Positions 1,046-54,839 of a stretch of DNA of 58,039 bases are shown piece by piece. The first letter of the stretch is position 1. Every line of letters starts with the position of its first letter. The notes beneath the pieces were generated by a model, which saw only the letters and a program-made list of their open reading frames with translations, had not been told where the DNA came from and made no database searches. The DNA lies in the IMG/VR virus record IMGVR_UViG_3300037246_001186, positions 1-58,039 of that record, one strand, 5' to 3'. The position numbers and the translations under genes are program-made. This stretch comes from a virus (lineage: Duplodnaviria > Caudoviricetes).

Positions 1046-1599
1046 CGCCCCTCCCTGGAACCACAGGGCTCCTGCCCGTGGCTCATCATGTGGTAGCGTA
1101 CAGTGGTGAAGTCAACAGGCTGGAAGTTCCAGCTGTCCACCCCGATGTCAAAGACCTTGCGATCCATCCGCGGTTCCAGTGTGCCATGGCTGTGCCCATG
1201 CAGGTGCCAGCTCCCACGGTGACTGCTCGGCCACACGTCCATGCGGTAGTGGCAGAGGAAGATGAGTTGGCCATCCACCATGATCTCCAGCTGCTCGTGG
1301 ACTTCATTGAAGTGCTGGATATCCTTGCGATGGTCGTGGTTGCCTTTGATGAGAACCACATCACCGTTCAGCCGGTCCAGATAAGTCGATGGTGTCTTCC
1401 GGCCCTTGGAGAGTGAGAAATCCCCGAGGTGGAATACAGTCTGATCGGGTTGTACCCGAGAGTTCCAGGCATCGATCATCGTGGCGTCCATCACTGCCAC
1501 ATTGGGAAACGGTCGGTTGCAATACTTGATGATGTTCGCGTGCCCAAAGTGCGTGTCAGCGATGAACATCACCTTGTTCTTGGAGTACTTGTGCGCCAT
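1042..1599 (-). CDS. Calcineurin-like metallophosphoesterase
   Basis: DTHFGH, HLGDF, GNHD, LHGHSH, DIGVD motifs; AAGGAG upstream of ATG 1599; stop overlaps the GGDEF start (ATGA). Confidence 0.9.
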   Translation of the reverse strand: MAHKYSKNKVMFIADTHFGHANIIKYCNRPFPNVAVMDATMIDAWNSRVQPDQTVFHLGDFSLSKGRKTPSTYLDRLNGDVVLIKGNHDHRKDIQHFNEVHEQLEIMVDGQLIFLCHYRMDVWPSSHRGSWHLHGHSHGTLEPRMDRKVFDIGVDSWNFQPVDFTTVRYHMMSHGQEPCGSREGR

Positions 1600-1618
1600 G
1601 ATCTTCTCCTTCGGCATC

Positions 1619-1648
1619 AGCGTAGCACAACTTGAGGGAAACTTGCAA
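1619..1648 (-). promoter_or_regulatory. Putative sigma70-type promoter of the phosphoesterase-DGC operon
   Basis: TTGCAA-N18-TACGCT with an extended -10 TG, just downstream of the terminator. Confidence 0.35.
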
Positions 1649-1650
1649 GA

Positions 1651-1678
1651 CAAAGCCCCCGGAGTCTCCCCCGGGGGC
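1651..1678 (-). terminator. Intrinsic terminator
   Basis: GCCCCCGG/CCGGGGGC stem followed by TTT on the minus strand. Confidence 0.6.
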
Positions 1679-3236: not shown

Positions 3237-3430
3237 AGGTAAACTCCATAGGTTTCATGATCTCCACTATAATTAGGGAAGTCACTGAACCCAACTACAG
3301 TATTTCGCATAACAGTGTCCATGTCAACCGGTTCCAAACAAATACCTCTCACCTTCTCATCAGGCTTATCAGGCTCGGGGTCTAGTTTGGCCGCAGCCAA
3401 GCGCAGGAGTGATGCTAGTAAACGTCGCAA
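3233..3430 (-). CDS. Hypothetical protein
   Basis: Coupled ORF, 65 aa. Confidence 0.45.
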   Translation of the reverse strand: MRRLLASLLRLAAAKLDPEPDKPDEKVRGICLEPVDMDTVMRNTVVGFSDFPNYSGDHETYGVYL

Positions 3431-4380
3431 GGCTTCGGATTCTCCACGTAACTCAGTTGATTCAGAATCTGTGTCGCATTCACTATTGAGGTCCTAGGTT
3501 GCAGTACAGCTGCGCGTCCAGCGGCGTTAGCGATCTTCAGCGAGTCATGCCAGTCACCACCAGCAAGGCGGCCAAGCAGCAAGGCGGCAGCGAACACATC
3601 ACCCGCGCCGCACACCATGGGGTCCTCAACGGGTGTCGTTGGAGAGGACTCACCATTCACGATGTCAGCCCCCAAGGGTCCACCCGTTACGACAATGGAG
3701 CAATCATCCCTCAGTCCAGAAGTGTCGAGCAACTCGAACTCCTCAGTGTTGGGGGTTACGCAGTCAAACACGTTGTTCAGTACGAAGGACGGAGTGCTGC
3801 GGTGAGGATCCAGGTGCATGGTCAAGTCCCCGCTCAAAACCTTCATGTCCATGAGGCGGCGCATCATCGGACACCCAATAGCGCCGTGCCCGTAATCAGA
3901 GAATAGGACACCATCAGCCCACCCATGAGTATTACCTAGCTCCCTGGCCATTATGGTGGCACACCCCAGACTGACTTTGCCTTCACTCACTCGATCAATT
4001 CTCACAGCTCCGAAGTCGCTATCAAACGACTCCACGCGAGTCTTCGTAGTTGTCACCACATCAGAGAGCCCAGGAGCTGAGATCACGCTGTTGCGGATGC
4101 GCCACCTATCCATGAGTCTGGTAACGATCTCGGACTCACGGTCGTTGCCCACGAGGCCCACCAGGCACACCTTAGCGCCCATGGCTGCAAGGTTCGCAGC
4201 TACGTTCGCCGCTCCACCGAGATAGGGCGTCTCCGACACCTCGTTATACACAGCCATCTTTCCTGCCGGATCGTCACGGTGGTTGTTGATTACTTCGAGG
4301 TAGGTGTCGAGGATGATATCGCCGACAACGACGACCTTCTTCCCCTTCCACGACTCAATGATGCTGGGTAATGTTGTCAC
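3415..4380 (-). CDS. PfkB/ribokinase-family sugar kinase, most like the HldE/RfaE domain I (heptose-7-phosphate kinase)
   Basis: VVVGDIILD, LGGAANVAANL, GLVGND, TTTKTRV, SDYG, TPNxxE, CGAGDVF; GTG start overlaps the upstream TGA; no adenylyltransferase domain. Confidence 0.85.
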   Translation of the reverse strand: MTTLPSIIESWKGKKVVVVGDIILDTYLEVINNHRDDPAGKMAVYNEVSETPYLGGAANVAANLAAMGAKVCLVGLVGNDRESEIVTRLMDRWRIRNSVISAPGLSDVVTTTKTRVESFDSDFGAVRIDRVSEGKVSLGCATIMARELGNTHGWADGVLFSDYGHGAIGCPMMRRLMDMKVLSGDLTMHLDPHRSTPSFVLNNVFDCVTPNTEEFELLDTSGLRDDCSIVVTGGPLGADIVNGESSPTTPVEDPMVCGAGDVFAAALLLGRLAGGDWHDSLKIANAAGRAAVLQPRTSIVNATQILNQLSYVENPKPCDVY

Positions 4381-4565
4381 TCTTGGTCCCTTCGTTTGAA
4401 TGGTAGCAGCACCAGCTGTACCGGTAGGAGCAGCAACCAAAGTGAAAAGTAGTAGATGACACTCAACAGAGCCATCCACGCTCTGTAGAGATGCCAGCTC
4501 ATAGTCCTGGGCCTGGGGCAGTCACTGATGTAATATTCTGTGACTTCTGTGCTGTCCTTGGCCAT
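4377..4565 (-). CDS. Small membrane protein
   Basis: 62 aa with a long hydrophobic segment. Confidence 0.5.
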   Translation of the reverse strand: MAKDSTEVTEYYISDCPRPRTMSWHLYRAWMALLSVIYYFSLWLLLLPVQLVLLPFKRRDQE

Positions 4566-9907: not shown

Positions 9908-10504
9908 CTAGCTCCTTGTTTTGGCGGTATCCTTCTTGATACCGCGGACAATTAGAATCTTCTTTGGGATCACACTGATGCCGGGAGGGAAGGACTCGTC
10001 TGTCTCATCCACACCCTTGTTGGTGTACTCCCTGCGTATGAAACCGTTGCGGGCCTGGGCGTTCACGGTCAGCATGTCGGGGTGGTGCTCCTGGACCCAA
10101 TCGATGAAGGCCGCGGGGTCATCCACCGCAGTATCGTAGCGCTCGGACACGGTACAGTTCTCACCGCCTCCACCCATGCCCTTGAACTGCTTGGTACCCT
10201 GCGTCTCCATCGCCTCGATCATCCGCCACTGCTGTGCATCCAGCTCGGCATTCACGATCTTCAGCGACTCCTTTAGAGCTGCTTGTCGATGGCGCAGGAC
10301 CACCACGTCGGCGAACTCGTTCTCAAGGGAGCCAAGCTCCTCAGTACCCAGCTCATTGCTGTCGGTACCGTCGGAGCCTCCTGCATCAGTGAGGAGCTGA
10401 TCGAGGACACCGGGTGTGTCGCTCTCTGGGAAGTGCTTCTGCATCGCTCCATCGAACTGAGCGAGAATACTGGGGTCTGCTTCTTTCGTCTTCTTACCGG
10501 CCAC
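9908..10504 (-). CDS. Conserved phage protein (coiled coil plus PPGI motif; Gam-like)
   Basis: Coiled coil, 'DPAAFIDWV', 'PPGISV'; GTG start with AAGGAG. Confidence 0.55.
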   Translation of the reverse strand: MAGKKTKEADPSILAQFDGAMQKHFPESDTPGVLDQLLTDAGGSDGTDSNELGTEELGSLENEFADVVVLRHRQAALKESLKIVNAELDAQQWRMIEAMETQGTKQFKGMGGGGENCTVSERYDTAVDDPAAFIDWVQEHHPDMLTVNAQARNGFIRREYTNKGVDETDESFPPGISVIPKKILIVRGIKKDTAKTRS

Positions 10505-10841
10505 GTATACTCCTTGTCAGCCTAACGCTGTCATCTTCGAAATGTTCAGTTGATACCTCTAGGATCATCGCGCCCTCTGTTGTTAGACACTGAAAACAGT
10601 GGGAGATCCCGGGGAGGATGTCCACGATGTCTCCTTTGCGGAGGTGCATCGGCACACCTCCGAGAGTGAGAAGCACTTCTCCTCCTAGCATAGTGAAGGT
10701 TTCGGTCTTCTTCTCATGGTAATGGATGCTACAACAAGCGCCGAAGTCTACGTACAGAATCTTGCCGCAGTATAGAGGGCTGTTAGCGAGCCACTCCTCC
10801 TGGCCCCACACCTTCTTATGGACCTCGGGTCGTCGGATCAT
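10494..10841 (-). CDS. Cupin, sugar-phosphate isomerase-like
   Basis: KVWGQE, YCGKIL, SIHYHEKKTETF, HCF, LEVST. Confidence 0.8.
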   Translation of the reverse strand: MIRRPEVHKKVWGQEEWLANSPLYCGKILYVDFGACCSIHYHEKKTETFTMLGGEVLLTLGGVPMHLRKGDIVDILPGISHCFQCLTTEGAMILEVSTEHFEDDSVRLTRSIRGR

Positions 10842-22125: not shown

Positions 22126-24825
22126 CTAAACTTGTGAAAACCGATCCAACCACCGCTGACCAGTGTTGAACTCATCCGCCCATGTGTCAAGCTGATCGAA
22201 TCTATCAGCCCAAGTAAGCGCCTCAGATATATCCTGAACAGGCGCAACTGCCCTGCATGTGAGATTGAACTTGTCACCATTCTGTGGTTCAGTCATAATC
22301 GACTCGACCACGCAACGAGCGCGCTTCGGTGCGTTTCTAGCTGCCAAGAAATCAACCGTAACAACACTCCCACGATCAAGTCCATGCGCTATCCACGCAG
22401 TGCTGAAAAAGAAACGCAGCTTGGAGAAAGCATAACGCGACGCCATCGCAGCAGCCATTCCAGCCACACTCGTGGCAGCATCATACTTCGAATTGCCTAC
22501 GTCCTGTGAATGAGCCCAGAACTTAAACCGCCCTCTTGGGTCTAGCTGCTCGCCAAAGATAGCCACGCTATCAGCGTCTTCTTGATCCTCTGAACGCTGC
22601 CACGTCGGCTGCGATTCTGAATAGTCTGGAGCGTAATCGATCAAGACTTTGTTAATGATATCAGAAACAGGTGTACGCTCCAGCGTTGTCCCGTTGTTTA
22701 GCATGGTGTTTGTGCCAGAGATACCGGGGAGGACAAACGACTGTACAACCTGAAAAGACTCTACGACAGAGAGTGGCTCATGAAACACCATCTCATGTCC
22801 ACTCGGTCCATAGTGGAAGTCAGCACGCGCCTGTATAGCTAACTGCCTCTCCAGCTCTGACCAGCTATTGATCGGGTCAAGCAAAACAAAGTTCCACCTA
22901 ATGTTCTCATCCTGGTGTCTTGCGTCCGCGGCATCATATGCTGATTCATTGATCGTATTAAGCCTACCATCCACTCCAAGAAGATGCGCCTGTAAACCCG
23001 CCATCGCAGCAGCCGGACGACTGATAGGCTGCTGCGTGAAACCACGGACAGTCTCAGTATCTCTCCAAGGACTAAGGACATCACTCCCATCGGCAGCCAC
23101 CGCATACTCTGTAATCTGCGAACCCCTGAGATCCGGAGGCATGCGAAACACAACATCGGCATACTGCATGACCGGCCCTACAGCACCAGAGACCCCTGTA
23201 CCAACACTGACATCCGTATCTCTAGTCAGCTCTATATCAACTTCTAGGTCATGCTCCCACCAAACCTCCTGGACATTTCCAGCTGTCGCCGAGGACATCC
23301 GCACTGTCTCATTGAAGTTTCTAGTCGTAGGCTGCGTGAATCTGTATGTACCAGCGGAGCCCACAGAGCCAAAGGTGATTGTACCTGTGGAGTCCTTGAA
23401 GTCGACTGAGCCAGTCGAGATAACATGCAGCGTGCTGGCTGTGGTGTCATCATCCGAGAAGGGTGCAGGTGGACTGTTGAATGTGATAGTGATGACATTC
23501 AGTGGATCTACTAGAACCGCAGTTGAAGCGTTTCCATCACGAGCCTCCACATTATCCGCACCTGTTCCACCAGTGCCATAGTTCAACTTACTGGTCATGC
23601 GCTCTTTATTGTTGGTACCAAATACAGGTTGCGCAGTGACCTCTACATCATTCGGATCATTTTGCTCAAAGAATACTGGCACGTTGGGGTCAGCTGTACT
23701 CCCCCTAGGTAGCCTAAGGTATGTTTCGTTATTTCCCAAGTTACTAACATGGGCAGAGCCTCCGCCTGTAACAGAGATCTCAAACGGCCATCGCTCAGGG
23801 TCAGCCGTAACAATGCGCCCACTAGCAAACCTGAAACCCACTGAGCCAGCCAAGTCAGGCGAGTAGAGTAAACGATATTCTGCAAGAGCCCACCGAAAAC
23901 CATCGACACTAGGTACCTCTTGAACATAGGCCCCTCGTGGGACAGCGGCGGCCAAACCGCTTGCCAACTCAAACGTTAGAAGATTGTTGATTGCATCAAA
24001 CACGACAGCACCAAAGTCAGGTACTACCGAATGCACGGGGGTTTGGTAATGCAGCACCACCTTAGTCACATTGACACCACCCGCTGACTTCATCATGTTA
24101 ATACCTGAAGTCAGTGGATGAATCTGAATAACAGTGTCACCAGCGTTATAACCCGACACAGTAAAGCCACGAGTCACAGCAGCTGTCGTGGGTGGCCGAA
24201 ACCATGTATCCGGTCTACCCACCACGATGGGATATGCCTTACCAATATCACGCTTGTCTAAACCAGTGCTATTCGTGGAGGTTGGCTCAGGTGGAATCAC
24301 TAGGCGCTGGCGCACTACCTGATTTCTCTTAGCACCGCGGTTGTACAAAACGATATTAAACCCATCCAGGTTCATATCTTGAGGAGCACCAAAGAAGCCA
24401 TCTAGAACTAGCGTCGTCCAATCTGCGTCAGCTAGATCACTCATGCTTGTACCAGGCTTTAGATAGCCTACACGCAGCGTGGCCTTTGTATTCTCCCATC
24501 CGTAGACATCATCTACAACCGACTCCATCACGGACACAGAGGCATTCAACGGTAGATTCATGACAGGTATGATAATCGCTGGAGAGCTTGGACTGCCACC
24601 AGGAGTGAATGCCGCAGCACGCATCACATTCTGTGGGTATAGAATCATGTTGTCAAACGTCTGACCGAGCGCCTGCCCACTCCGAGTAGACCAATAAAAG
24701 TCCACATCAGAATGAGAACCACGCCCCTTCAACTGACCGCTCAGTAGATAGACCGCTCCCTCAAGATTGGAACGCTGAGTGGCGACACTCTGATTTACTG
24801 AAATGTCAAGCTGATTGCTACTCAT
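22126..24825 (-). CDS. Large tail tip/baseplate hub protein
   Basis: 899 aa after the distal tail gene; 'YPIVVG', 'DSVAIFG', 'LDRGSVVTV' tail-hub-like segments. Confidence 0.7.
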   Translation of the reverse strand: MSSNQLDISVNQSVATQRSNLEGAVYLLSGQLKGRGSHSDVDFYWSTRSGQALGQTFDNMILYPQNVMRAAAFTPGGSPSSPAIIIPVMNLPLNASVSVMESVVDDVYGWENTKATLRVGYLKPGTSMSDLADADWTTLVLDGFFGAPQDMNLDGFNIVLYNRGAKRNQVVRQRLVIPPEPTSTNSTGLDKRDIGKAYPIVVGRPDTWFRPPTTAAVTRGFTVSGYNAGDTVIQIHPLTSGINMMKSAGGVNVTKVVLHYQTPVHSVVPDFGAVVFDAINNLLTFELASGLAAAVPRGAYVQEVPSVDGFRWALAEYRLLYSPDLAGSVGFRFASGRIVTADPERWPFEISVTGGGSAHVSNLGNNETYLRLPRGSTADPNVPVFFEQNDPNDVEVTAQPVFGTNNKERMTSKLNYGTGGTGADNVEARDGNASTAVLVDPLNVITITFNSPPAPFSDDDTTASTLHVISTGSVDFKDSTGTITFGSVGSAGTYRFTQPTTRNFNETVRMSSATAGNVQEVWWEHDLEVDIELTRDTDVSVGTGVSGAVGPVMQYADVVFRMPPDLRGSQITEYAVAADGSDVLSPWRDTETVRGFTQQPISRPAAAMAGLQAHLLGVDGRLNTINESAYDAADARHQDENIRWNFVLLDPINSWSELERQLAIQARADFHYGPSGHEMVFHEPLSVVESFQVVQSFVLPGISGTNTMLNNGTTLERTPVSDIINKVLIDYAPDYSESQPTWQRSEDQEDADSVAIFGEQLDPRGRFKFWAHSQDVGNSKYDAATSVAGMAAAMASRYAFSKLRFFFSTAWIAHGLDRGSVVTVDFLAARNAPKRARCVVESIMTEPQNGDKFNLTCRAVAPVQDISEALTWADRFDQLDTWADEFNTGQRWLDRFSQV

Positions 24826-38712: not shown

Positions 38713-38821
38713 TCAACAGTCTCTTCAGATTGTCTCGGATGTCCAGCAGCACCTCCAGCAGGAGCGCCCACTTCGGGCCGAACTGTAAGGCTGTACTGAG
38801 TACTTCCTTCCGAGGCCTCAT
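38675..38821 (-). CDS. Small hypothetical protein (48 aa, below the ORF-track cut-off)
   Basis: MRPRKEVL...LLEVLLDIRDNLKRLL; ATGA coupling. Confidence 0.45.
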   Translation of the reverse strand: MRPRKEVLSTALQFGPKWALLLEVLLDIRDNLKRLLNDRSTDRSSRKG

Positions 38822-39267
38822 CTCTTGGCTCGGAACAATCCATAAACCTCTCGGAAGCGTCTCCAGCGGCTCAGAGGCTTCTCGCCCTCATCCCACTCGC
38901 GGTAGGAACTAGCACCCCAGATACGAACTCGGCCCCAGTACATCCAGGCCAGTTGATTCTGTCGTATCCTTCCGGCGCCCTGCAACCGCAGCTGCGTCAT
39001 CATATTCTCTCGGAAGTTATTATCGGCCAGCCACCGCGCCTGCCAGGTGCCACCCAAACAACCAGTACGATACGCCCAGTCGTGAATCACGCACGCGGGC
39101 CAGAGCTTGTACACCTTCCAAGGTGCGACGATGTACGCGTCTGGGCTGTTGCTGCAACCATCACACTCCCACATCCTCGGGGGCTTCGGTCCAACCAGCG
39201 CCTCCCAGTAGGTAGAGCTAACAGCGAGCCGCTCGCCCCCTACAACAAACTCATACGATCTACTCAC
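38818..39267 (-). CDS. Phospholipase A2-like protein (CxxHDxxY)
   Basis: CDGCS, PACVIHDWAY, ADNNF. Confidence 0.65.
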   Translation of the reverse strand: MSRSYEFVVGGERLAVSSTYWEALVGPKPPRMWECDGCSNSPDAYIVAPWKVYKLWPACVIHDWAYRTGCLGGTWQARWLADNNFRENMMTQLRLQGAGRIRQNQLAWMYWGRVRIWGASSYREWDEGEKPLSRWRRFREVYGLFRAKR

Positions 39268-40677: not shown

Positions 40678-40872
40678 CTACTTGAAAAATGCTGCTATTG
40701 CAATCAAGACAGCTGCCACGCCAGGCACCGCGCCCCACGCCCTTGCTCGTCCTTGAATCCTTGCTATGTCCACCTGCAACCCAGCGACTCGCGCATCCAA
40801 AGCGTCGAAGCGCTTTAGAACGTATGTCTGATAGTCGTTGAGGTTGCCTGGTCGGTTGTCACTCGCACTCAC
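40678..40872 (-). CDS. Coiled-coil plus C-terminal TM protein (holin or lysis-accessory-like)
   Basis: Heptad repeats followed by GAVPGVAAVLIAIAAFF. Confidence 0.55.
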   Translation of the reverse strand: MSASDNRPGNLNDYQTYVLKRFDALDARVAGLQVDIARIQGRARAWGAVPGVAAVLIAIAAFFK

Positions 40873-41062
40873 ACTCTATTTCCTCTACGTCGGATGGCTC
40901 TGGTTCAGCGTCATCAGCTAGCGCAGCGGCAATGCGGCCACGAGTCCTTGAGAGTCGAGCCGCGGCTGGATCCTCATACTGCTGTACACCAGCGCGATCT
41001 ACGCGCTCTGATAGCGGTTCCTGATGCGCTGCTTGCGCTTGCGCTTGGCCGCGTCGCCTCAT
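40859..41062 (-). CDS. Hypothetical protein
   Basis: ATG coupled to the upstream TGA. Confidence 0.45.
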   Translation of the reverse strand: MRRRGQAQAQAAHQEPLSERVDRAGVQQYEDPAAARLSRTRGRIAAALADDAEPEPSDVEEIECECE

Positions 41063-41148
41063 TGCAAGAATGCTACAAGGCAGAGAGCATAGGCACAAAG
41101 AGCAAGCGCACAGGCCACGAACTCGCACACTGCGGGGTGAATGCGCAT
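41059..41148 (-). CDS. 29-aa hydrophobic peptide (not in the ORF track)
   Basis: MRIHPAVCEFVACALALCAYALCLVAFLQ fills the gap and is coupled to the next ATG. Confidence 0.35.
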   Translation of the reverse strand: MRIHPAVCEFVACALALCAYALCLVAFLQ

Positions 41149-41152
41149 TGGC

Positions 41153-41419
41153 TTAGCGCGCGTTGCCGTGCGTGCCGGAAACGTGGGTGTCCATGGGGAC
41201 ACTCTCTTCGCCACCACCATCGCCAGGTGTGCCCTTGCCGGAGCCGGTCACGGGGCTTGGCCCGCCAACGTGGGTGTCCATGGGGATAGACTCCATGCCG
41301 CCGACGGCGCCAGTGGTCTCACCCTTACCGGAGCCGGTCGAGATGACAGCGCTGTTGTGGGTGTCGCTAGGGATGCTCTGAGGGCCTCCGCCCGGAGCTG
41401 CTACTTCAAACTGGCCCAT
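41153..41419 (-). CDS. Gly/Ser/Thr-rich protein with three internal repeats
   Basis: GAGGAG SD; S[IV]P[SM]DTH x3 and TGSGKG x2. Confidence 0.7.
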   Translation of the reverse strand: MGQFEVAAPGGGPQSIPSDTHNSAVISTGSGKGETTGAVGGMESIPMDTHVGGPSPVTGSGKGTPGDGGGEESVPMDTHVSGTHGNAR

Positions 41420-41545
41420 GTAAAGGTCTCCTCAATAGATGAAATAAGAAGCCACTGCCAGCCTCGCCAAAGGCCAAGATAAACAAAAGCTCAAGGATGC
41501 ACGCATCCAAGAGGAGTCAAATGGGCGATAGGCAGTGCTCCTATG

Positions 41546-41563
41546 CACCCATTACATTAACGA
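41546..41563 (-). promoter_or_regulatory. Putative late promoter element, copy 2
   Basis: TCGTTAATGTAATGGGTG upstream of the first late gene. Confidence 0.5.
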
Positions 41564-41626
41564 TCACGAAGGAGGAAACGCAGGCTCGGTGAGGGAAAGT
41601 GATGCGCATATATGGGATTCGAGGGG

Positions 41627-41720
41627 TGCAGCCTCATGTTGCAGGGGATGCAGCCTCATGTTGCAGGGGATGCAGCCTCATGTTGCAGGGGGTGCAACAT
41701 TATGTTGCAGGGTGCAACAT
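41627..41720. repeat. 22-bp tandem repeat of TGCA-N9-TGCA palindromes
   Basis: TGCAGCCTCATGTTGCAGGGG(A/G) x3, then TGCAACATTATGTTGCAGGG and a partial copy. Confidence 0.9.
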
Positions 41721-42211
41721 TCTTGGTCACCATTCGTGAGCCGTTGTTGCATCTATCTGCGGTGCATGGGACGGCACCCCCGCGGGGTGACGTTTTTAGG
41801 GGATGGCCCCCCGCGGGGACTGCGCATGAGTTGCACATTGCCTGCCGGTCTATGAGAGAGTCTACGATGATAGTTGCGCACTCCCTGCCTCCCCCTGAGG
41901 GGCAAGCCTGCTGCTGGGGCGGCAGGCTCTAAGTGCACGAGCGCACGCTATAGCCCTCGATGGCTGTGCGCCAATACTCTCAGTATTGGCGCATGGGTAG
42001 GGATAACGCGGGGTTACACTGGGGGTCTGCCTACGTTGCCCAGCAGCGGTCTCGAATCGACCCCGCACGCACAGCCCCCTACCCTGGGGGAGGGTACCGA
42101 AAACCGGGGGATATCCCAATTTGCCTATAAGCTGCGCACGAATGATACGGTACGGGAACGCGCAGATCATGCGCAGCTAGTGTGCATAGCGTGAGAGAGT
42201 ATGCGAACCCC

Positions 42212-42313
42212 ACTGGTGGGCCTGCTACTGGTGGGCCTGCTACTGGTGGGCCTGCTACTGGTGGGCCTGCTACTGGTGGGCCTGCTACTGGTGGGCCTGC
42301 TACTGGTGGGCCT
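42212..42313. repeat. 15-bp perfect tandem repeat (ACTGGTGGGCCTGCT) x6.8
   Basis: Units start at 42212, 42227, 42242, 42257, 42272, 42287, with a partial unit at 42302. Confidence 0.95.
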
Positions 42314-42359
42314 ATAAAGAAAGAAGGGCAGGACACCCTACCGTAGGGGGTCCTGCCCT
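42314..42359 (-). terminator. Intrinsic terminator after the Cys-rich gene
   Basis: AGGGCAGGAC...GTCCTGCCCT long stem followed by TCTTTCTTTAT on the minus strand. Confidence 0.75.
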
Positions 42360-42402
42360 AGATCGGCGCACAGGGGCTAATTATGCGCCTATCAATGCCA
42401 CT

Positions 42403-43770
42403 CTACCACCAGTGTGCCGCCGATAGCCTCTTGAGGCGAGTCTTTCTCAGAAGAAATCGGGGGACAGCCTGCCATATCGGCCTATATATCCCTGCCACTT
42501 TGAAAACGAAAAAAGCCTGCTGCTTGCTCTCTTCTTCAGCGATCTCTTCTCTTTTTTCATCGGCACAATAAGTGCAGTAATCCAACCCTTCCACCTGCTC
42601 CGCTTGCTTTTTATCATGCCGCTCTATGCAAGTATCGCACTCAATACTATCACCCTCTGTGCAATCCTCACACCAGTACACGTCGCCAAATTGCGTTTTT
42701 ACTTCGGTGAAAGAATCCTTACCCCAGTCGCCGCAAGCTTCGCAGCAGCTGTATTCTTCGAGGCAGGATTCACATACTGAATGATTGTCACCTATGTCGG
42801 TTACTTCTCTGTCGGAAGAATACTCGCCGCACTCATGACAGCAAGTATAGTGCACCCTAAGACAATCATCACAAACGTAGTGACAGTCATCTATAACCGT
42901 CATAACATCATTAGGGCAAGTCTCTTCACAGTCCTCACAGCAGAATGTATAATCATCCAGACAGTCCTGACACCAGCTAGCACAGCCGAAGCAACCACCC
43001 TCGTTCTCAGGGTCATAACCCTCCCCGCACTTCTCGCAGCAGCAGCAGCCTCCTATGCTTCCCGTTTCGGTTTTCATGCTCATATCGCCACATCGACGGA
43101 GAACTAGATACTCGTTATCAAGTACGCAAGCGCCCTCGCACCCATCCCAATAGGGGGAAACAAAGCCCCCACCGTCCGCCGCTATGTTAAGTATCCTCGC
43201 CCCGTCAAAGGCTCCAGTATCCCCACAGCTATATCCCTCCCGCTCAAGGGCACCCTCTAGCCTGCCCGCATCTCCGAATATTCTAACCCAAATCTTCTTC
43301 TCGGGCCAAACTACTGAGCGGGCTGTGACTTCGCCAAAGTCTTTCTCAAGATAGGCGATAGCGAGATCACCAGCGCCATACACGCTAACTTGCTCGGCGC
43401 CTTTCATGCAGCTACTAGGCCCATCGGCATAGACCCTAACGATATCTTCAGGGGTGGTCGCAAGCTTGAAGCCCAGGTTTTCACAGTATTTAGCGAAAAC
43501 CGCAGCGTAGCGTTGAACCTCGGTATCTGGTAAAGCCGGAAAATTACTCTTGAGATACTTACCGGGACGCATACGCGTCTGTCTATCCTGCTCGCCCATC
43601 GAGTCATCCGACGTGAAGGCTATCTTCGAATCATCCGCCGTTGAAACGTGCGCGTAATGATTAAGAAAAGCCTCACTGAAAATCCACCAGTCTTCATCGC
43701 GCCAAGGTAGGTGGGTGTATTCCCCCGTATCAAAAAGAGCCTGCTCGCGTTTTCGCCACTCACTCCGCAT
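42403..43770 (-). CDS. Large protein with tandem zinc-ribbon (CxxC) repeats
   Basis: N-terminal domain with YADGPSSCM; ten CxxC motifs in the C-terminal half. Confidence 0.8.
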   Translation of the reverse strand: MRSEWRKREQALFDTGEYTHLPWRDEDWWIFSEAFLNHYAHVSTADDSKIAFTSDDSMGEQDRQTRMRPGKYLKSNFPALPDTEVQRYAAVFAKYCENLGFKLATTPEDIVRVYADGPSSCMKGAEQVSVYGAGDLAIAYLEKDFGEVTARSVVWPEKKIWVRIFGDAGRLEGALEREGYSCGDTGAFDGARILNIAADGGGFVSPYWDGCEGACVLDNEYLVLRRCGDMSMKTETGSIGGCCCCEKCGEGYDPENEGGCFGCASWCQDCLDDYTFCCEDCEETCPNDVMTVIDDCHYVCDDCLRVHYTCCHECGEYSSDREVTDIGDNHSVCESCLEEYSCCEACGDWGKDSFTEVKTQFGDVYWCEDCTEGDSIECDTCIERHDKKQAEQVEGLDYCTYCADEKREEIAEEESKQQAFFVFKVAGIYRPIWQAVPRFLLRKTRLKRLSAAHWW

Positions 43771-45199: not shown

Positions 45200-45592
45200 T
45201 TAAATGATAGCATAGCTCGTCAACTGATCTTCTGGCCACCAGTCCACCAAGGTATCAATAGTCGCCCACTCATGCTCTATCCAACGATCCTCACCTACAA
45301 TAAGCAGACGTGATTGACCACCATGTTTGATGACTTGATCCAGAAAGAACTGCTGCGCCCTGGTACAGGATGACCGGGGGGTACCCTTTTTTGAATGCTT
45401 TATCGCAGAATACGTCTTAGCCTCGATGAATAAGAGTCCCTCACCCCAGCGCCCCACCAGCCAATCGGGCACACCACTGAGTGTTGAAGCAGGCAGCTTC
45501 TGGTACCATTGCCTCTTGGCGATACCAATGGCTGCCCACTTGTCTCCACGCTCTCGCTCGGGGCCGCTAGCCACTCCTGTGCGGCGTCCCAA
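45200..45592 (-). CDS. VRR-NUC / Holliday-junction resolvase-like nuclease
   Basis: GVPDWL...LFIEAK...TRAQQFFL. Confidence 0.8.
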   Translation of the reverse strand: MGRRTGVASGPERERGDKWAAIGIAKRQWYQKLPASTLSGVPDWLVGRWGEGLLFIEAKTYSAIKHSKKGTPRSSCTRAQQFFLDQVIKHGGQSRLLIVGEDRWIEHEWATIDTLVDWWPEDQLTSYAII

Positions 45593-45998
45593 CTACGCGC
45601 AGAATGGCACTCTGATCATCGTCCATCCAGAGCATGAATGACTCATAGGCTGCTCGACTCGAACCGACACCAAGATGCTTTCCGATCAACCCAGCATACA
45701 TACCAATACCAATACATCCTATGACATTGTGCGACCAGTTGGCACGGTGTAGCAGAATATAGGTACGATCCGGTACGTCGATAACCTGGTAGGCATCGTA
45801 GCCCCCTCGATTATACTCTCTAAGACTGAGATAGTACACGCCGACAGGGATACAAGATACGCCTACAGCGTTGTTCAACCAAGGTCGCTCTACTGTATAA
45901 AGCGTCGGCCCAGCGCAGCCACGCGAATCCTCAGTGCTCATCCTCCCTAGTGTGGTCACACCATCGTCAATGAAACGGTCTAGCGTTAAAAACCTCAT
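45567..45998 (-). CDS. DUF5675-like protein (candidate endolysin)
   Basis: TLGRM, YTVERPW, SCIPVGVY, VPDRTYILLHRAN, GCIGIG, SRAA. Confidence 0.75.
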   Translation of the reverse strand: MRFLTLDRFIDDGVTTLGRMSTEDSRGCAGPTLYTVERPWLNNAVGVSCIPVGVYYLSLREYNRGGYDAYQVIDVPDRTYILLHRANWSHNVIGCIGIGMYAGLIGKHLGVGSSRAAYESFMLWMDDDQSAILRVVGTPHRSG

Positions 45999-48337
45999 GC
46001 GCTACTCCACGGATCTCTCCTGCCATATAGAGCCACACCATCACAGCCCCAGTCCTTTGGCAGCTCCTCTTTCACTGCCCATGACTCATATGCCACCTTC
46101 GGCTCCACCACCATGGGAACCAGCGACTTCTTACCCGCCTTGACCATCAGCTTGGAGATAGCCTGGCACACCTCTTTGGTCACTGCCTCCTTCTTGACTC
46201 GAAACATCAGCTCATCATGAATCGGTACCACCATCTTCCAATCATCGTCGAGACCATTCTGCTGGAGATAAGTATCGATGGAAACGATCGACCGCAACAG
46301 CAGCTCACGCTCACTGCGCTGGACGATGTAATTCATCCCCTTGAAGCCACCATCCAGATAGACACGAGCACCTCCTATGGTGCGAATGAAATCCTGATGG
46401 CTATACTTGCTCGGCTTACCGGTGCGCCGCAGCCTCTCCTCGACAAAGATCTTGACACGCCCCAGCTCGGTGTATGCCTTGTTCCAGAAGATATCCATGA
46501 GCTTGTAGGCTGTCTTCCAATCGCTGTTGATCATGTCGGAGACCTTCGCTCCGCCAGCACCAAACGGGATCGCAAAGTCTACGTTCTTGGCCTTGTCTCT
46601 ATCCAGCTCAACGCCGAGACGCTCACACGTCTCCAGCATGATGGTGTGTGGATCAAACTCCACACCCTCGTTGAGGAAGCCCTCGACGAGATTCATTCGC
46701 TGCGGTCGGCTGTTGTAAGTCTCCCACCCACCAGTGTGAATGAACTTGCGGCACGCAGCCTTGTCACCTTCCGGTCCATGGGGTGCTTTACCCTTGCAGC
46801 TCCCACGCTTGCCCATGGTACAACCCCATGTGAACCGGTACCCGAACGACGGAGGAATGGCAATAGCGTAGTGACCCATCAGGCGCATCTGGCACCCGCT
46901 ATAGTCGAACATCACGAAGGCATGCTCCTCACCAGGCTGGAAGCAATGCCTCACGCTCTTCACCTGATTCTGATAGGCCACCTCGGGGCTCTTGTCCTTC
47001 TTCGGCTTCGCTGTGTTCATGACAGCGGGCTTCTCGGAAGCAAACCGCGTGGTCACGGCAGCAAGAGGTGATAACGTAGTGTGTACGTTTCCTGTCTCAC
47101 CAAACGCAGTCAGTGGGCGGTAGAAGGAAGTCAACTCCTTGTTCGCCTTGCGATAGTCTCCGATAAGGTCGAGCAGCCGCGCAGCGTCCTCCGAGGTGAG
47201 ACCACTCTCCAGCTGAACAGCCCCCTCTGACACCAGCTTGGTCCGGACGTGTTTTAGCGTTGCCTTCTTCGTGTCTCGATTGCCACGATACGTCGGCAGC
47301 TTCAGCTCATCGTACAGCTGACCAGCTAGCGTGGGGCCATGTCCGAGGTTCAGTATGATACCAGCGAGGGCGTGGATCTCAATCACGAGATCCTCTACCT
47401 CCTTCTCCTTCTGGCCAGCTCGCTCGATACACATCGCCTGATCCACGGGCATGCCGCGCTTCTCCATCCCAGCTACGATGCGCCGCTCCTGCTTATGCAG
47501 AGCAAGCAGCTCACGAATGGGTGCCTCCTGATACGCCTCTCTCGCTCGACACACCGCAGCCACCTTCAGCAGCAAGCGCGTGTCCATGCAAGCGTAGGGC
47601 GACACCGCGGTGCGCAGCGGGAGCATGCTCCAGTCGTTCAGCATGGCGGAGCCCTTACCCAGTGCCCGCCTGGCCTGGTTCAACAGCCCCTGCTCGTCCG
47701 GATCCACACCACACCACGTCTCGCCCAGATGCTTCAACGAGTGCCCTCCGTGGACGAAGCCACCCTTCCCCTCATTCAGCTTGTCGTCCCAGAGATCCAC
47801 GGGCCTCGGGTCGGTGAACACCGATAGCGCCTGGGTGTCCTCCATCCGATCCCAAGGCAGCTGGATCCCATCCACCAGCATCATCCGCGTGTCAAAGGGC
47901 CAGTTCTGTGCCAGCCACTCCACGTCGGGGGCATCGAACATGGCCTGGATGAGCCTCAACACACCAGCGAGCGGGAGGTTGGGGTCAGCCTCGCCATCTA
48001 GCTCCCACGTACCATACTCAGTCACACCCTCCGCGTTATGGAGGCGCTCCACCCACTCCCGCCCCTGATTCTTCTCGTCTGCGACGATCTGCTCCTCAGA
48101 CCGGCGCCAGTCGTAAGGCACATGCCGAACAGGAGCGTAGAAGTCAACCTCCGTCCCCTCAAGGTCATAGCTGACGCTGAAGCCGCAGAAGCGGGTGTCG
48201 GTAGCCCAGCTCGTGAAGCGCTTGTCCTTCACCTCGGTGGTCTCGGTGTCGAAACCAGCCTGCGCGACCCTGCGCTCCAAAATCGGGGTAAGTACCTCTT
48301 CTAGCTGGGAAATTGTCTCGATCAGTCCAGTCTGCAC
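45995..48337 (-). CDS. DNA polymerase family A with 3'-5' exonuclease
   Basis: Exo motifs DTET, NWPFD, YACMD; polymerase motif A DYSGCQMR, motif B RDKAKNVDFAIPFG, motif C IHDE. Confidence 0.92.
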   Translation of the reverse strand: MQTGLIETISQLEEVLTPILERRVAQAGFDTETTEVKDKRFTSWATDTRFCGFSVSYDLEGTEVDFYAPVRHVPYDWRRSEEQIVADEKNQGREWVERLHNAEGVTEYGTWELDGEADPNLPLAGVLRLIQAMFDAPDVEWLAQNWPFDTRMMLVDGIQLPWDRMEDTQALSVFTDPRPVDLWDDKLNEGKGGFVHGGHSLKHLGETWCGVDPDEQGLLNQARRALGKGSAMLNDWSMLPLRTAVSPYACMDTRLLLKVAAVCRAREAYQEAPIRELLALHKQERRIVAGMEKRGMPVDQAMCIERAGQKEKEVEDLVIEIHALAGIILNLGHGPTLAGQLYDELKLPTYRGNRDTKKATLKHVRTKLVSEGAVQLESGLTSEDAARLLDLIGDYRKANKELTSFYRPLTAFGETGNVHTTLSPLAAVTTRFASEKPAVMNTAKPKKDKSPEVAYQNQVKSVRHCFQPGEEHAFVMFDYSGCQMRLMGHYAIAIPPSFGYRFTWGCTMGKRGSCKGKAPHGPEGDKAACRKFIHTGGWETYNSRPQRMNLVEGFLNEGVEFDPHTIMLETCERLGVELDRDKAKNVDFAIPFGAGGAKVSDMINSDWKTAYKLMDIFWNKAYTELGRVKIFVEERLRRTGKPSKYSHQDFIRTIGGARVYLDGGFKGMNYIVQRSERELLLRSIVSIDTYLQQNGLDDDWKMVVPIHDELMFRVKKEAVTKEVCQAISKLMVKAGKKSLVPMVVEPKVAYESWAVKEELPKDWGCDGVALYGRRDPWSSA

Positions 48338-52487: not shown

Positions 52488-52563
52488 TGGTCAGGAGTGG
52501 AGGGATCGAACCTCCGTACCCGGGGTCACAACCCGGTAGATTGGCCTGCTATCCTAACTCCTG
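52488..52563 (-). tRNA. tRNA with His anticodon (GTG) and an atypical acceptor end
   Basis: Cloverleaf CAGGAGT/ACTCCTG, CCGGG-TTGTGAC-CCCGG, GGAGG-TTCGATC-CCTCC, encoded A-CCA. Confidence 0.85.
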
Positions 52564-52834: not shown

Positions 52835-52912
52835 TGGTCGGGATGGCAGGATTCGAACCTGCGGCCTTCCGGCTCCAAACCGGAAGCTCTGGCCAGACTG
52901 AGCTACACCCCG
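52835..52912 (-). tRNA. tRNA-Pro (TGG)
   Basis: CGGGGTG/CATCCCG, GCTC/GAGC, TCCGG-TTTGGAG-CCGGA, TTCGAAT, A-CCA. Confidence 0.92.
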
Positions 52913-53785: not shown

Positions 53786-53889
53786 CAGCGCCTCCGAAAG
53801 AGTGTGGCGTGTACTACCACAAACATGAGACCGGCCAATGCCAGGCCTAGCCCAATGTGGTCAACGAGAGTAAGCGATTCATACCACAT
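53785..53889 (-). CDS. 34-aa single-TM peptide (not in the ORF track)
   Basis: MWYESLTLVDHIGLGLALAGLMFVVVHATLFRRR; TGATG coupling at both ends. Confidence 0.55.
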   Translation of the reverse strand: MWYESLTLVDHIGLGLALAGLMFVVVHATLFRRR

Positions 53890-54839
53890 CAGAACAACTC
53901 CGGCGCATTCTTCTTGGTTTCAGTGATGCAGCAGGCTCTTAGTCTCCGGAAGTTGACCGTCGGGAACTTGAGTTTCTTGACGGCACTCCACAGCTCCTCA
54001 GTGACCACGCAGTGGAATATGGTCTCCAGGAGCCGGGGGATGATTGTTTTTCTGTTGTTTTCGAGGATGGTTAGGTACTCGGATCTAACATGCCTTCCGA
54101 TCAATTTTGAGTAAGACCAAACGATCTTCGCCAGCTCCTTATCGACTAAAGCCCGAGTTATACAGCTCTGAGCAATGACGATCTCCGGTTGGACGGCACC
54201 CTCCTTGACGGTAGTTCCAAATTCTCTCTGATTGCTTTCCTTGAACTCGTTGTTCACGATCTTAGCCCAGGGCTGGCGCCCGTACTTGTTCGTCCAGCTG
54301 TAGTTCTTGAGAACGATGCCCTCGCCGATACCCCTGCCATCCGCGATGAGGTAGGTGTTGGCTTGCACTTGGGCTCTGAGCTGATCCTCGGTTGGGTTGT
54401 TTATGATGCAAAGAGGCTCGATCACTGGGATGTTCTTTGATAGGCACCAAGGGGCGTACTCAGTGTAATGGAGATACCCCCTGGTTTGCATGTCCCAGAT
54501 GTCAAAGATGTAGAAACGCCTCCAGGCGTCGTATCTATACGTTCTGAGGGTATGTGGGACTAACCACTCCCCATAGATGTTGTGGTGCATGAACTTGTGT
54601 AGCAGAGAGTCGAAAGTTGGAGAAGATTGTGCCATCTTGAAAAAGTTGTGGTTGTCCTTCTCTGCTGAGAGCACCCTGTTTCGTGATCCAGCACAGCCAA
54701 CGCCTAGCTCACTCAGCCAGACACTGGCGTTGGTGCCATCCAGCTTGGGAAAGACGTACACCTCGCCGATGTCGATGCCCTCGACTTCGCTGTTGCCATA
54801 CCTCTCCACATGGTCGAACTTTCTAAACAGGCTGGTCAT
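53889..54839 (-). CDS. ATP-dependent RNA ligase (Rnl2-like nucleotidyltransferase)
   Basis: Motif I KLDGTN, SRNR, YGEW, FYIFDI, EGIVLK, WAKIV. Confidence 0.85.
   Translation of the reverse strand: MTSLFRKFDHVERYGNSEVEGIDIGEVYVFPKLDGTNASVWLSELGVGCAGSRNRVLSAEKDNHNFFKMAQSSPTFDSLLHKFMHHNIYGEWLVPHTLRTYRYDAWRRFYIFDIWDMQTRGYLHYTEYAPWCLSKNIPVIEPLCIINNPTEDQLRAQVQANTYLIADGRGIGEGIVLKNYSWTNKYGRQPWAKIVNNEFKESNQREFGTTVKEGAVQPEIVIAQSCITRALVDKELAKIVWSYSKLIGRHVRSEYLTILENNRKTIIPRLLETIFHCVVTEELWSAVKKLKFPTVNFRRLRACCITETKKNAPELF

What the first reader, a model, noticed from the sequence alone, without database searches (positions are those of the whole stretch)
46200..47065. Family A polymerase with several substituted substrate-selection residues
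Aligned by eye to Klenow: motif A DYSQIELR reads DYSGCQMR, so the steric-gate Glu710 is Gln (codon 46889-46891). Motif B RRSAKAINFGLIYG reads RDKAKNVDFAIPFG (Asn to Asp, Tyr766 to Phe). The TGRLSSxxPNLQNIP motif reads TTRFASEKPAVMNTA. A Cys/His-containing insertion (CTMGKRGSCKGKAPH...C...H) follows motif A. Catalytic Asp residues and exonuclease motifs are intact. The changes cluster at sugar, base and primer contacts. Inference: altered nucleotide selectivity, such as modified dNTPs or relaxed ribonucleotide exclusion. The phage also has its own dNMP kinase.
Basis: partly seen in the sequence, partly recalled or inferred. Interest (0 to 1): 0.7.

Follow-up and report, generated by a model that had tools for sequence, protein, structure and literature searches.

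The report
Phage DNA polymerase, swapped sugar-gate pair
This uncultured marine-sediment phage copies its DNA with a Pol I-type polymerase in which a normally fixed, hydrogen-bonded glutamate-tyrosine pair beside the incoming nucleotide has become glutamine-phenylalanine, a rare paired swap also seen in other uncultured phage polymerases and whose effect on the enzyme has never been measured.

Summary
Window 45995-48337 (-) encodes a 780-aa exonuclease-plus-polymerase family A enzyme. HMMER alignment to Klenow puts Gln483 at steric-gate Glu710 and Phe592 at Tyr766.

Three listed features are not special to this gene. The Cys/His insertion, the TTR motif and the Asn/Asp change in motif B are clade-wide or polymorphic among 47 metagenome-only relatives. 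Gln483 is private (1 of 47). Phe592 is nearly private (2 of 47).

New here: Gln at the gate always comes with Phe. That holds in 7 of 7 Gln rows among 146 distant PolA representatives and in 16 of 16 among 80 IMG/VR loci. No Gln/Tyr row was seen.

Published Klenow data make E710Q a slow mutator that does not close better on rNTPs, and Y766F close to wild type. Six-frame searches found no thymidylate-synthase-type, ThyX, PurZ-type, TGT or dUTPase gene in the 76%-complete record. The dNMP kinase is real but does not travel with Gln/Phe polymerases elsewhere.

My reading: a working replicative polymerase with a coupled, shape-preserving pair swap. Use of modified dNTPs or rNTPs is unsupported. 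The scan noted the same Gln/Phe pairing on other DNA (e1-5912289, unchecked).

The parts
45995..48337 (-). Family A DNA polymerase gene, 780 aa (P0001), GTG start
   Evidence: AlphaFold2 model with pLDDT 94.1 and pTM 0.92. Best solved match is Klenow 8oo6_A, Foldseek E 1.4e-23.
47543..48337 (-). 3'-5' exonuclease domain (residues about 1-265) with D30, E32, D149, Y248 and D252
   Evidence: These residues are invariant in A1 (47 of 47) and in A2, which includes canonical Pol I. Pfam PF01612 scores 20.9 bits, just under its 23.6 cut-off.
47009..47059 (-). TGR-type motif AVTTRFASEKPAVMNTA. R431 is kept. Ala438 and Asn441 are unusual.
   Evidence: At 438: N in 44 of 47, A in 3 of 47. At 441: Q in 45 of 47, N in 2 of 47. 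T430 (TTR rather than TGR) is clade-wide, 44 of 47.
46880..46912 (-). Motif A MFDYSGCQMRL. Catalytic D478. Cys482 is private. Gln483 (codon CAG, 46889-46891) sits at the steric-gate position.
   Evidence: Position 483 is E in 46 of 47 and Q in 1 of 47. Position 482 is C in 1 of 47.
46694..46858 (-). Clade-wide Cys/His insertion (residues 494-548) between motif A and the fingers helices. Candidate metal ligands are C506, C514, H520 and H534.
   Evidence: W504, C506, C514, G516 and H534 are 47 of 47; H520 is 44 of 47. The module is absent from the 23%-identical IMG/VR sister protein (L003), from phage M6 PolA and from canonical Pol I. Modelled alone it reaches pLDDT 90.7 as a long beta hairpin plus loop. 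It has no structural match in the PDB.
46559..46600 (-). Motif B RDKAKNVDFAIPFG. R580, K584 and F588 are kept. Phe592 (TTT, 46562-46564) sits at the Tyr766 position.
   Evidence: Position 592 is Y in 45 of 47 and F in 2 of 47. Position 587 is N in 26 and D in 16 of 47. Position 591 is P in 2 of 47 (this protein and P0003).
46208..46225 (-). Motif C PIHDEL (H707, D708, E709)
It belongs to the same phage, but no link to the polymerase changes was found.
   Evidence: PF21448 at 1e-9 and phrog_139 at 9e-32. There was no DNMK match in any of the 16 other Gln/Phe phage records.
4499..6655 (-). Probable primase-helicase partner (weak Toprim match plus a GPPGTGKG P-loop)
   Evidence: Toprim_2 at 0.0036 and phrog_6088 DNA primase at 5e-6. 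P-loop found. The assignment is weak.

Best explanation
This is the phage's working replicative DNA polymerase, with a proofreading exonuclease and a polymerase domain. It belongs to a small family A clade known only from metagenomes. Every member of that clade carries a conserved Cys-Cys-His-His module, probably zinc-binding, inserted between motif A and the fingers helices.

In this one lineage the hydrogen-bonded pair that forms the floor of the nucleotide pocket (Klenow Glu710 and Tyr766) has been replaced as a pair by Gln483 and Phe592. Each change is one base away from a Glu or Tyr codon.

Proposed mechanism, inferred and not shown: losing the Tyr hydroxyl leaves the buried carboxylate without its partner, so the neutral Gln of the same shape becomes acceptable. 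Both side chains keep their bulk, so the steric block against a 2'-OH should largely remain. The expected consequences are shifts in dNTP affinity, rate or fidelity, backed up by the intact proofreader. A new substrate class is not expected.
For: Shown here:
- Identity, fold and intact catalytic and exonuclease residues.
- The clade is separate. 48 relatives lie at 39-69% identity, then the E-value jumps to 2e-10. Only 12 of 1.84 billion cluster representatives reach E <= 1e-30, followed by a gap from 7e-45 to 8e-19.
- The protein deviates at 10 of 171 conserved columns, within the clade's range of 1-17, so the gene is not decaying.
- Pair coupling. In 146 representatives there are 121 Glu/Tyr, 13 Glu/Phe, 7 Gln/Phe, 0 Gln/Tyr, 1 His/Tyr and 4 rows with gaps. 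Fisher p is 4e-7, not corrected for kinship. In 80 IMG/VR loci there are 62 Glu/Tyr, 16 Gln/Phe, 2 Glu/Phe and 0 Gln/Tyr.
- On a FastTree built without the trait columns, Gln needs at least 5 changes. In 5 independent pairs Phe goes the same way in 3-4 and never the opposite way.
- The 16 Gln/Phe loci are only 32-42% identical to the query, so the state has been kept over long divergence.

From the literature (PMC3715850, passages): Y766 and E710 are hydrogen-bonded and the pair is described as invariant in A-family polymerases. Y766F is close to wild type. E710Q does not improve closing on rUTP.
Against: - No enzyme with this pair has been assayed.
- In Klenow, E710Q alone is a mutator with a low incorporation rate. 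A real cost or a real change in selectivity is therefore possible, and the double mutant was not covered in the passages I read.
- The kinship-corrected test has too few pairs: 5 pairs, sign test p 0.125. Deep FastTree branches are unreliable, and the representatives and the IMG/VR loci may overlap.
- This genome has further private changes (Cys482, Ala438, Asn441) that the pair-swap idea does not explain.
- I could not measure the Gln483-Phe592 distance or the Cys/His geometry, because model coordinates are not exposed.
- Zinc binding rests on conservation alone. The module has no structural match.
Confidence: 0.6

Rival explanations
1. Low-fidelity or slow polymerase. As in Klenow E710Q, Gln483 weakens closing on the correct dNTP and makes the enzyme a mutator. 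This could be tolerated because proofreading is intact, useful for diversification, or a mildly harmful allele caught in one sample.
For: Klenow E710Q is listed among the mutators, has an overall Kd2 of 230 uM for dTTP against 0.83 uM for wild type, and has a low incorporation rate (PMC3715850). Gln483 is seen in only 1 of 47 clade members and in one run. Neighbouring Cys482 aligns with Klenow Ile709; that this is a fidelity position is recalled, not checked.
Against: The Gln/Phe state is conserved across 16 IMG/VR loci that are 32-42% identical to the query, which argues for a fit enzyme rather than a defect. Here Gln sits on a Phe background, which the Klenow single mutant does not reproduce.
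Confidence: 0.17
2. Relaxed sugar selection. The Gln/Phe pocket admits rNTPs or 2'-modified nucleotides.
For: Positions 710 and 766 are the sugar-selection positions of family A enzymes; Czernecki 2023 calls them A2 and B4 (PMC10201439). Three adjacent motif A residues (481-483) differ from the clade majority.
Against: Gln keeps the bulk of Glu. Klenow E710Q closes no better on rUTP than wild type, whereas E710A does. Phe588, at the Klenow F762 position, is kept. No gene in the record points to RNA-containing or sugar-modified DNA.
Confidence: 0.1
3. Adaptation to a base-modified genome, such as hypermodified pyrimidines or 2-aminoadenine, with the dNMP kinase supplying the modified dNTP.
For: A dNMP kinase is present. 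Phe at motif B position B4 is described as the unique shared substitution of both DpoZ clusters of 2-aminoadenine phages (PMC10201439). The record is only 76% complete, so such genes could be missing from it.
Against: There is no Thymidylat_synt, Thy1, Adenylsucc_synt, TGT or dUTPase match in six frames. None of the 16 other Gln/Phe records has DNMK, Thymidylat_synt or Adenylsucc_synt, 4 of them at least 90% complete, whereas 7 of 34 Glu-gate records have Thymidylat_synt and 1 of 34 has a PurZ-like gene. Czernecki 2023 itself judges the Phe unlikely to affect A versus Z choice. That residues 710 and 766 face the sugar and minor-groove side, away from major-groove base modifications, is recalled structural knowledge.
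Confidence: 0.07
4. Artefact: a sequencing or assembly error, or a chimera of strains.
For: Only one run holds the sequence, at modest depth (11.4). It is kept as contigs, which hide minor variants.
Against: Two assemblies agree with 0 differing letters across 2343 bases. The private changes sit in three separate motifs, up to about 460 bases apart. The frame is open, and the Gln/Phe pairing matches a pattern seen in unrelated sequences.
Confidence: 0.03

Closest known systems
[quoted passage not shown]
   Same: Best solved structural match (Foldseek E 1.4e-23, TM 0.75 on the target) and best sequence match in the PDB (5.6e-10). It has the same exonuclease-plus-polymerase layout and the same catalytic Asp, His-Asp-Glu, Arg, Lys and Phe residues.
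   Different: Only 17-18% identical. Here Glu710 is Gln and Tyr766 is Phe, the motif reads TTR rather than TGR, and there is a roughly 55-residue Cys/His insertion after motif A. There is no 5'-3' exonuclease domain.
Klenow point mutants E710Q and Y766F (Hohlbein et al. 2013, PMC3715850; passages read)
   Same: They are the same two substitutions at the same two positions.
   Different: Those are single laboratory mutants on the E. coli background: E710Q is a slow mutator and Y766F is close to wild type. Here both changes occur together in a natural enzyme, with other changes alongside. The double mutant was not covered in what I read.
DpoZ polymerases of 2-aminoadenine phages (clusters #18 and #19 of Czernecki et al. 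2023, PMC10201439; phiVC8 DpoZ, PDB 7pbk)
   Same: Phage family A polymerases with an active exonuclease and Phe at the motif B Tyr position.
   Different: 7pbk_B ranks only 43rd among solved structures, at 15% identity. No PurZ-type gene is in the record. A Gln gate was not mentioned for DpoZ in the passages I read.
Unnamed IMG/VR PolA group with DYSQLQLR and NFGxIFG motifs
   Same: It has the same Gln/Phe pair, kept in 16 of 16 members, in exonuclease-plus-polymerase enzymes of uncultured phages.
   Different: Its representatives match this protein only at E around 1e-11 to 1e-18. It lacks the Cys/His insertion by motif context, though I did not align the whole region. So the Gln/Phe state arose separately.
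Yuavirus polymerases (Pseudomonas phage M6 gp062 and relatives)
   Same: They are the best matches among 50,697 deposited phage records. As here, a small gene follows the polymerase: in M6 it is annotated 'DNA helicase', and the window's counterpart matches phrog_2165 'DNA helicase'.
   Different: About 23% identity over 77% of the query. They have canonical Glu and Tyr and no Cys/His module.

Membership tests
Family A DNA polymerase (Pfam PF00476) | Profile score over the curated cut-off | tested here: met
   108.8 bits against a cut-off of 34.3; phrog_17 at 1e-66.
Family A DNA polymerase (Pfam PF00476) | Klenow-like fold | tested here: met
   Model pLDDT 94.1. 214 PDB chains match at E <= 0.001, and every chain in the listing shown is a family A DNA polymerase; the best is Klenow at 1.4e-23.
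Family A DNA polymerase (Pfam PF00476) | Catalytic carboxylates of motifs A and C, and Arg, Lys and Phe of motif B | tested here: met
   D478, D708, E709, R580, K584 and F588 align to Klenow. In the clade D478, D708, R580 and K584 are 47 of 47; E709 is 46 of 47 and F588 is 43 of 47.
Family A DNA polymerase (Pfam PF00476) | Steric-gate Glu (A2) and motif B Tyr (B4), described as an invariant hydrogen-bonded pair | tested here: not met
   Gln483 and Phe592. These are conserved positions rather than criteria for family membership, so the family assignment stands.
Family A DNA polymerase (Pfam PF00476) | 3'-5' exonuclease motifs ExoI, ExoII and ExoIII | tested here: met
   D30, E32, D149, Y248 and D252 are invariant, also against canonical Pol I. 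The Pfam PF01612 score is just below its cut-off, 20.9 against 23.6.
DpoZ (2-aminoadenine phage PolA) | Phe at motif B position B4 | tested here: met
   Phe592. The feature is described in PMC10201439.
DpoZ (2-aminoadenine phage PolA) | Co-occurring PurZ (adenylosuccinate-synthetase homologue) | tested here: not met
   No PF00709 match in six frames of the record; the control found the family in 14 of 14 genomes. The record is 76% complete.
DpoZ (2-aminoadenine phage PolA) | Sequence or structure closer to DpoZ than to other PolA | tested here: not met
   7pbk_B is rank 43 at 15% identity, behind Klenow, Pol theta, Pol nu and Bst.
Zinc-binding Cys2His2-type module | Four conserved metal-ligand residues | tested here: met
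   C506 and C514 are 47 of 47, H520 is 44 of 47 (Cys in 2), and H534 is 47 of 47.
Zinc-binding Cys2His2-type module | Fold like a known zinc finger or zinc ribbon | tested here: inconclusive
   Modelled alone at pLDDT 90.7. The best Foldseek hit in the PDB has E 2.2, and no VIA-align match reaches Z >= 2 among 48,161 chains. A missing match does not show that the fold is new.
Zinc-binding Cys2His2-type module | Bound metal with ligand geometry | not testable with these tools
   Model coordinates are not exposed. This needs metal analysis or a solved structure.
The 19 PolA clusters of Czernecki et al. 2023 | Sequence similarity to a cluster representative | tested here: inconclusive
   No deposited phage matches above about 23% identity, and no BFVD viral model above 17%. 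I did not have the paper's cluster sequences or supplements, so the claim 'outside all 19' is not shown.

The most novel reading that the evidence does not exclude
Gln/Phe is a second, working design of the family A sugar pocket. It has arisen at least five times in uncultured phages and always needs Phe first. It would give a polymerase with a measurably different sugar or fidelity profile, for example tolerance of ribonucleotides or 2'-modified nucleotides, or a tuned mutation rate. This genome, with its Glu/Tyr sister at 69% identity, would then be the cleanest natural before-and-after pair for testing it. Separately, its clade would be the first family A polymerase group with a zinc module in the fingers.
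Probability: 0.15. Interest if true: 0.7.

Novelty: new variant of a known kind. Interest (0 to 1): 0.45.

Why it matters
Glu710 and Tyr766 are textbook residues, and the paper I read describes their hydrogen bond as invariant in A-family polymerases. Natural enzymes that replace both, always together, give a ready test of what the pair is for: sugar exclusion, fidelity or fingers closing. They may also be useful starting points for engineering polymerases.

This gene is a good test case. Its nearest relative, at 69% identity, still has Glu and Tyr, so only a few substitutions need to be swapped.

The clade-wide Cys/His insertion has no structural match and was not found in my literature searches. 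It points to an undescribed accessory element in a replicative polymerase.

If the enzyme turns out to behave normally, the result still matters. It would mean this pair should not be used as a marker of unusual DNA chemistry when annotating phages.

Tried and rejected
The IMG/VR scan gave one true clade member, L002 at 44% identity, in a record 43% complete. The metagenome scan gave 13 mostly short contigs. The scan of bacterial and archaeal genomes gave none. So I could not compare gene content across the clade. The dNMP kinase was not found in L002's record, which shows nothing given how incomplete that record is.

Identifying the other Gln/Phe proteins. tblastn of P0200, P0065 and P0138 against deposited phages gave nothing above 38% identity. 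Two of the best hits for P0138 turned out to be bacterial Pol I in records filed among the phages. All seven Gln/Phe representatives come from metagenomes and none has a usable name. Single-protein IMG/VR scans with P0065 and P0200 found nothing. The scan with an alignment of the group did work.

Fold of the insertion. No match by Foldseek or VIA-align.

Viral structure library. No viral model is closer than 17% identity.

Literature. I searched for 'E710Q'; for 'steric gate' with family A, phage, DNA polymerase and ribonucleotide; for 'family A DNA polymerase' with zinc, fingers, insertion and phage; and for E710, Y766, hydrogen bond and Klenow. None turned up a natural Gln steric gate or a zinc module in PolA fingers. 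These are four word searches of an open-access library, not proof that nothing is in print. Supplements were closed and I did not ask for them. Supplementary Table S3 and the supplementary figures of Czernecki 2023 (insertions and motif logos) could bear on both points.

Pseudogene reading rejected. The frame is open, the model is confident, and the count of deviations at conserved columns is mid-range.

The plus-strand ORF at 46217..47071 (284 aa) nearly matches the finding's coordinates. I read it as a shadow frame of the GC-rich polymerase gene and did not test it further.

Sequencing runs. Only one run held the stretch and it is kept as contigs. Population variants at codon 483 could not be examined.
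Full report
WHAT IS THERE. The window is a whole IMG/VR virus record of 58,039 bases. It is linear and CheckV puts it at 76% complete. Nearly all its genes lie on the minus strand. The finding lies inside the ORF at 45995..48337 (-), which encodes 780 aa and is kept as P0001. It is a family A DNA polymerase: Pfam DNA_pol_A scores 108.8 bits against a cut-off of 34.3, and phrog_17 scores 1e-66. An AlphaFold2 model built on 47 sequences has pLDDT 94.1 and pTM 0.92. Its best solved match is the Klenow fragment, 8oo6_A, at Foldseek E 1.4e-23.

- DYSQIELR pairs with DYSGCQMR.
- RRSAKAINFGLIYG pairs with RDKAKNVDFAIPFG.
- TGRLSSTDPNLQNI pairs with TTRFASEKPAVMNT.

Codon 46889-46891 is CAG, Gln483, at the Glu710 position. 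Codon 46562-46564 is TTT, Phe592, at the Tyr766 position. The catalytic residues D478, H707-D708-E709, R580, K584 and F588 are in place. So are the exonuclease residues D30, E32, D149, Y248 and D252. All are invariant in an alignment that includes three canonical Pol I proteins. An independent Logan assembly of the only run that holds the sequence is identical over all 2343 bases at depth 11.4. That run is a marine sediment metagenome and is probably the source sample.

WHICH FEATURES ARE SPECIAL TO THIS GENE. A word-indexed search of 5.8 billion proteins returned 48 relatives at 39-69% identity, all from metagenomes. After them the E-value jumps to 2e-10, where ordinary Pol I begins. A full HMMER pass over 1.84 billion cluster representatives found only 12 with E <= 1e-30, followed by a gap from 7e-45 to 8e-19. 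No deposited phage is closer than about 23% identity; the best are the Yuavirus (M6-like) polymerases. No BFVD viral model exceeds 17% identity.

I aligned the query with 46 full-length relatives as A1 and counted residues.
- Clade-wide: the Cys/His insertion. W504, C506, C514, G516 and H534 are 47 of 47, and H520 is 44 of 47.
- Clade-wide: TTR in place of TGR. T430 is 44 of 47.
- A common polymorphism: the motif B Asn/Asp position, with N in 26 and D in 16 of 47.
- Private or nearly private to this gene: Gln483 (E in 46 of 47), Cys482 (1 of 47), Phe592 (Y in 45 of 47; F also in P0046), Ala438 (N in 44 of 47) and Asn441 (Q in 45 of 47).

The nearest relative, P0003 at 69% identity, reads DYSGQEMR and AIPYG, so it keeps Glu and Tyr. 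The protein as a whole is not degenerate. It departs from 10 of 171 conserved columns, and the clade's range is 1-17. Of the 5 departures that are private to it, 4 fall in the 28 conserved columns of the polymerase motifs. The hypergeometric p is 0.0026, computed post hoc.

THE GLN/PHE PAIR RECURS AND IS COUPLED. I aligned the query with 146 of the 150 best cluster representatives; the other four were already in A1. At the gate there were 135 Glu, 7 Gln, 1 His and 3 gaps. At the Tyr position there were 122 Tyr, 21 Phe and 3 gaps. All 7 Gln rows have Phe, and 13 Glu rows also have Phe. No row has Gln with Tyr. Fisher p is 4e-7, not corrected for kinship.

On a FastTree of the 143 rows that have both positions, built without the trait columns, Gln needs at least 5 changes and Phe needs 15. 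In 5 independent pairs Phe goes the same way in 3-4 and never the opposite way. That is too few pairs for significance: the sign test gives p 0.125.

A scan of IMG/VR with an alignment of one Gln/Phe group returned 80 polymerase loci. Of these, 62 are Glu/Tyr, 16 are Gln/Phe, 2 are Glu/Phe and 0 are Gln/Tyr. The 16 Gln/Phe loci are only 32-42% identical to the query of that scan. The state is therefore stably kept in a sizeable group of uncultured phages. The representatives and the loci may overlap, so the counts should not be added together.

The pattern fits the structure. In the passages I read of Hohlbein et al. 2013 (PMC3715850), Y766 hydrogen-bonds E710 in the closed complex, and the pair is called invariant in A-family polymerases. 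Glu/Phe rows exist and Gln/Tyr rows do not. This suggests that Tyr is lost first and that Gln then replaces the unpartnered carboxylate. That ordering is my inference, because the trees are unrooted.

WHAT THE CHANGES PROBABLY DO. The same paper reports the following:
- Klenow Y766F has properties and fidelity like wild type.
- E710Q is a mutator with weak overall dTTP binding (Kd2 230 uM against 0.83 uM) and a low incorporation rate.
- The closing constant on rUTP is 0.056 for E710Q, 0.083 for wild type and 0.16 for E710A.

So Gln, which has nearly the shape of Glu, does not behave like an opened gate. This argues against relaxed ribonucleotide exclusion. It leaves rate and fidelity as the properties most likely to shift, with an intact proofreader behind them.

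Czernecki et al. 2023 (PMC10201439; outline, section 11 parts 1-2, section 31 and passages) note that Phe at this motif B position is the shared mark of both DpoZ clusters. They also judge it unlikely to decide between A and 2-aminoadenine.

NO SIGN OF UNUSUAL DNA CHEMISTRY. Six-frame searches of the record found no Thymidylat_synt, Thy1, Adenylsucc_synt, TGT or dUTPase gene. For each family the control search hit known genomes. The record is incomplete, so this evidence is weak.

But none of the 16 other Gln/Phe records has a DNMK match, a Thymidylat_synt match or an Adenylsucc_synt match, and 4 of them are at least 90% complete. Among the 34 Glu-gate records searched alongside them, 7 have Thymidylat_synt and 1 (L069) has a PurZ-like gene. 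The pair therefore does not track known base-modification genes.

THE INSERTION. Residues 494-548 lie between the motif A helix and the fingers helices (secondary structure). Modelled alone, the segment gives a confident long beta hairpin (497-505 and 533-543) with a loop that carries C506, C514 and H520; H534 sits on the returning strand (pLDDT 90.7). The module is absent from the 23%-identical IMG/VR sister protein (L003), from phage M6 PolA and from Pol I. It has no match in the PDB by Foldseek (best E 2.2) or by VIA-align (no Z >= 2 among 48,161 chains). Four near-invariant Cys and His residues make a zinc site the most likely reading. Neither the geometry nor the metal could be tested here.

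VERDICT. The sequence observation is confirmed. The private changes do cluster at the nucleotide pocket, but the proposed use of modified dNTPs or ribonucleotides has no support from context, from relatives or from published mutant data.

The most likely reading (0.6) is a functional replicative polymerase from an undescribed, metagenome-only PolA clade. It carries a recently acquired, coupled Glu/Tyr to Gln/Phe swap that other uncultured phage polymerases reached independently.

It is a new variant of a known kind, of moderate interest. The same scan has already noted this pairing on other DNA (e1-5912289, unchecked), and it has noted many His-gate variants.

Noticed in passing
window 46217-47071 (+): A 284-aa open frame runs antisense to the polymerase gene and nearly matches the finding's coordinates. 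I read it as a shadow frame of a GC-rich gene.
   Followed up: no
window 42403-43770 (-): A 455-aa protein whose C-terminal half is packed with Cys pairs (many CxxC). It has no Pfam or PHROG match.
   Followed up: partly
window 42212-42313 and 41622-41712: A perfect 15-base tandem repeat of 6.8 copies, which reads as GPPVA repeats in a minus-strand frame. There is also a 22-base repeat of 4.2 copies. Both lie in the gene-poor stretch 40738-42403.
   Followed up: partly
window 52488-52563, 52835-52912 and 53889-54839 (-): tRNA-His(GTG) and tRNA-Pro(TGG) genes lie about 1 kb from an RNA-ligase-family gene (PF09414, 1e-16). This may be a tRNA supply or repair module.
   Followed up: no
window 38818-39267 (-): A 149-aa protein next to the terminase gene matches prokaryotic phospholipase A2 (PF09056, 3e-7, 31.3 bits against a cut-off of 29.4).
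   Followed up: no
window 476-1653 (-): A GGDEF diguanylate cyclase (PF00990, 5e-39) sits next to a metallophosphoesterase (phrog_547, 3e-50). Another note of the scan also flags this.
   Followed up: no
window 3415-4479 (-) and 10494-10841 (-): A PfkB-family sugar kinase (PF00294, 5e-18) lies among the replication genes, and a small cupin-like ORF lies nearby. Another note of the scan reads them as heptose metabolism. I did not test that.
   Followed up: no
window 45200-45998 (-): Directly downstream of the polymerase are a DUF5675 protein (PF18925, 4e-22) and a 130-aa protein that weakly matches phrog_2165, which is annotated 'DNA helicase'. Phage M6 has a similarly small 'DNA helicase' gene after its polymerase.
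   Followed up: partly
L069 (IMG/VR record G034), 22647-23705 of the record: An unrelated IMG/VR phage with a Glu/Tyr family A polymerase carries an adenylosuccinate-synthetase (PurZ-like) gene (5e-21). It is a candidate 2-aminoadenine phage.
   Followed up: no
L038, L039, L065: Three Gln/Phe polymerases also replace the motif A Arg (DYSSLQLIIF, Ile at the position of R485) and have Tyr at the Phe762 position (VNYALIFG). Their pocket is remodelled further.
   Followed up: no
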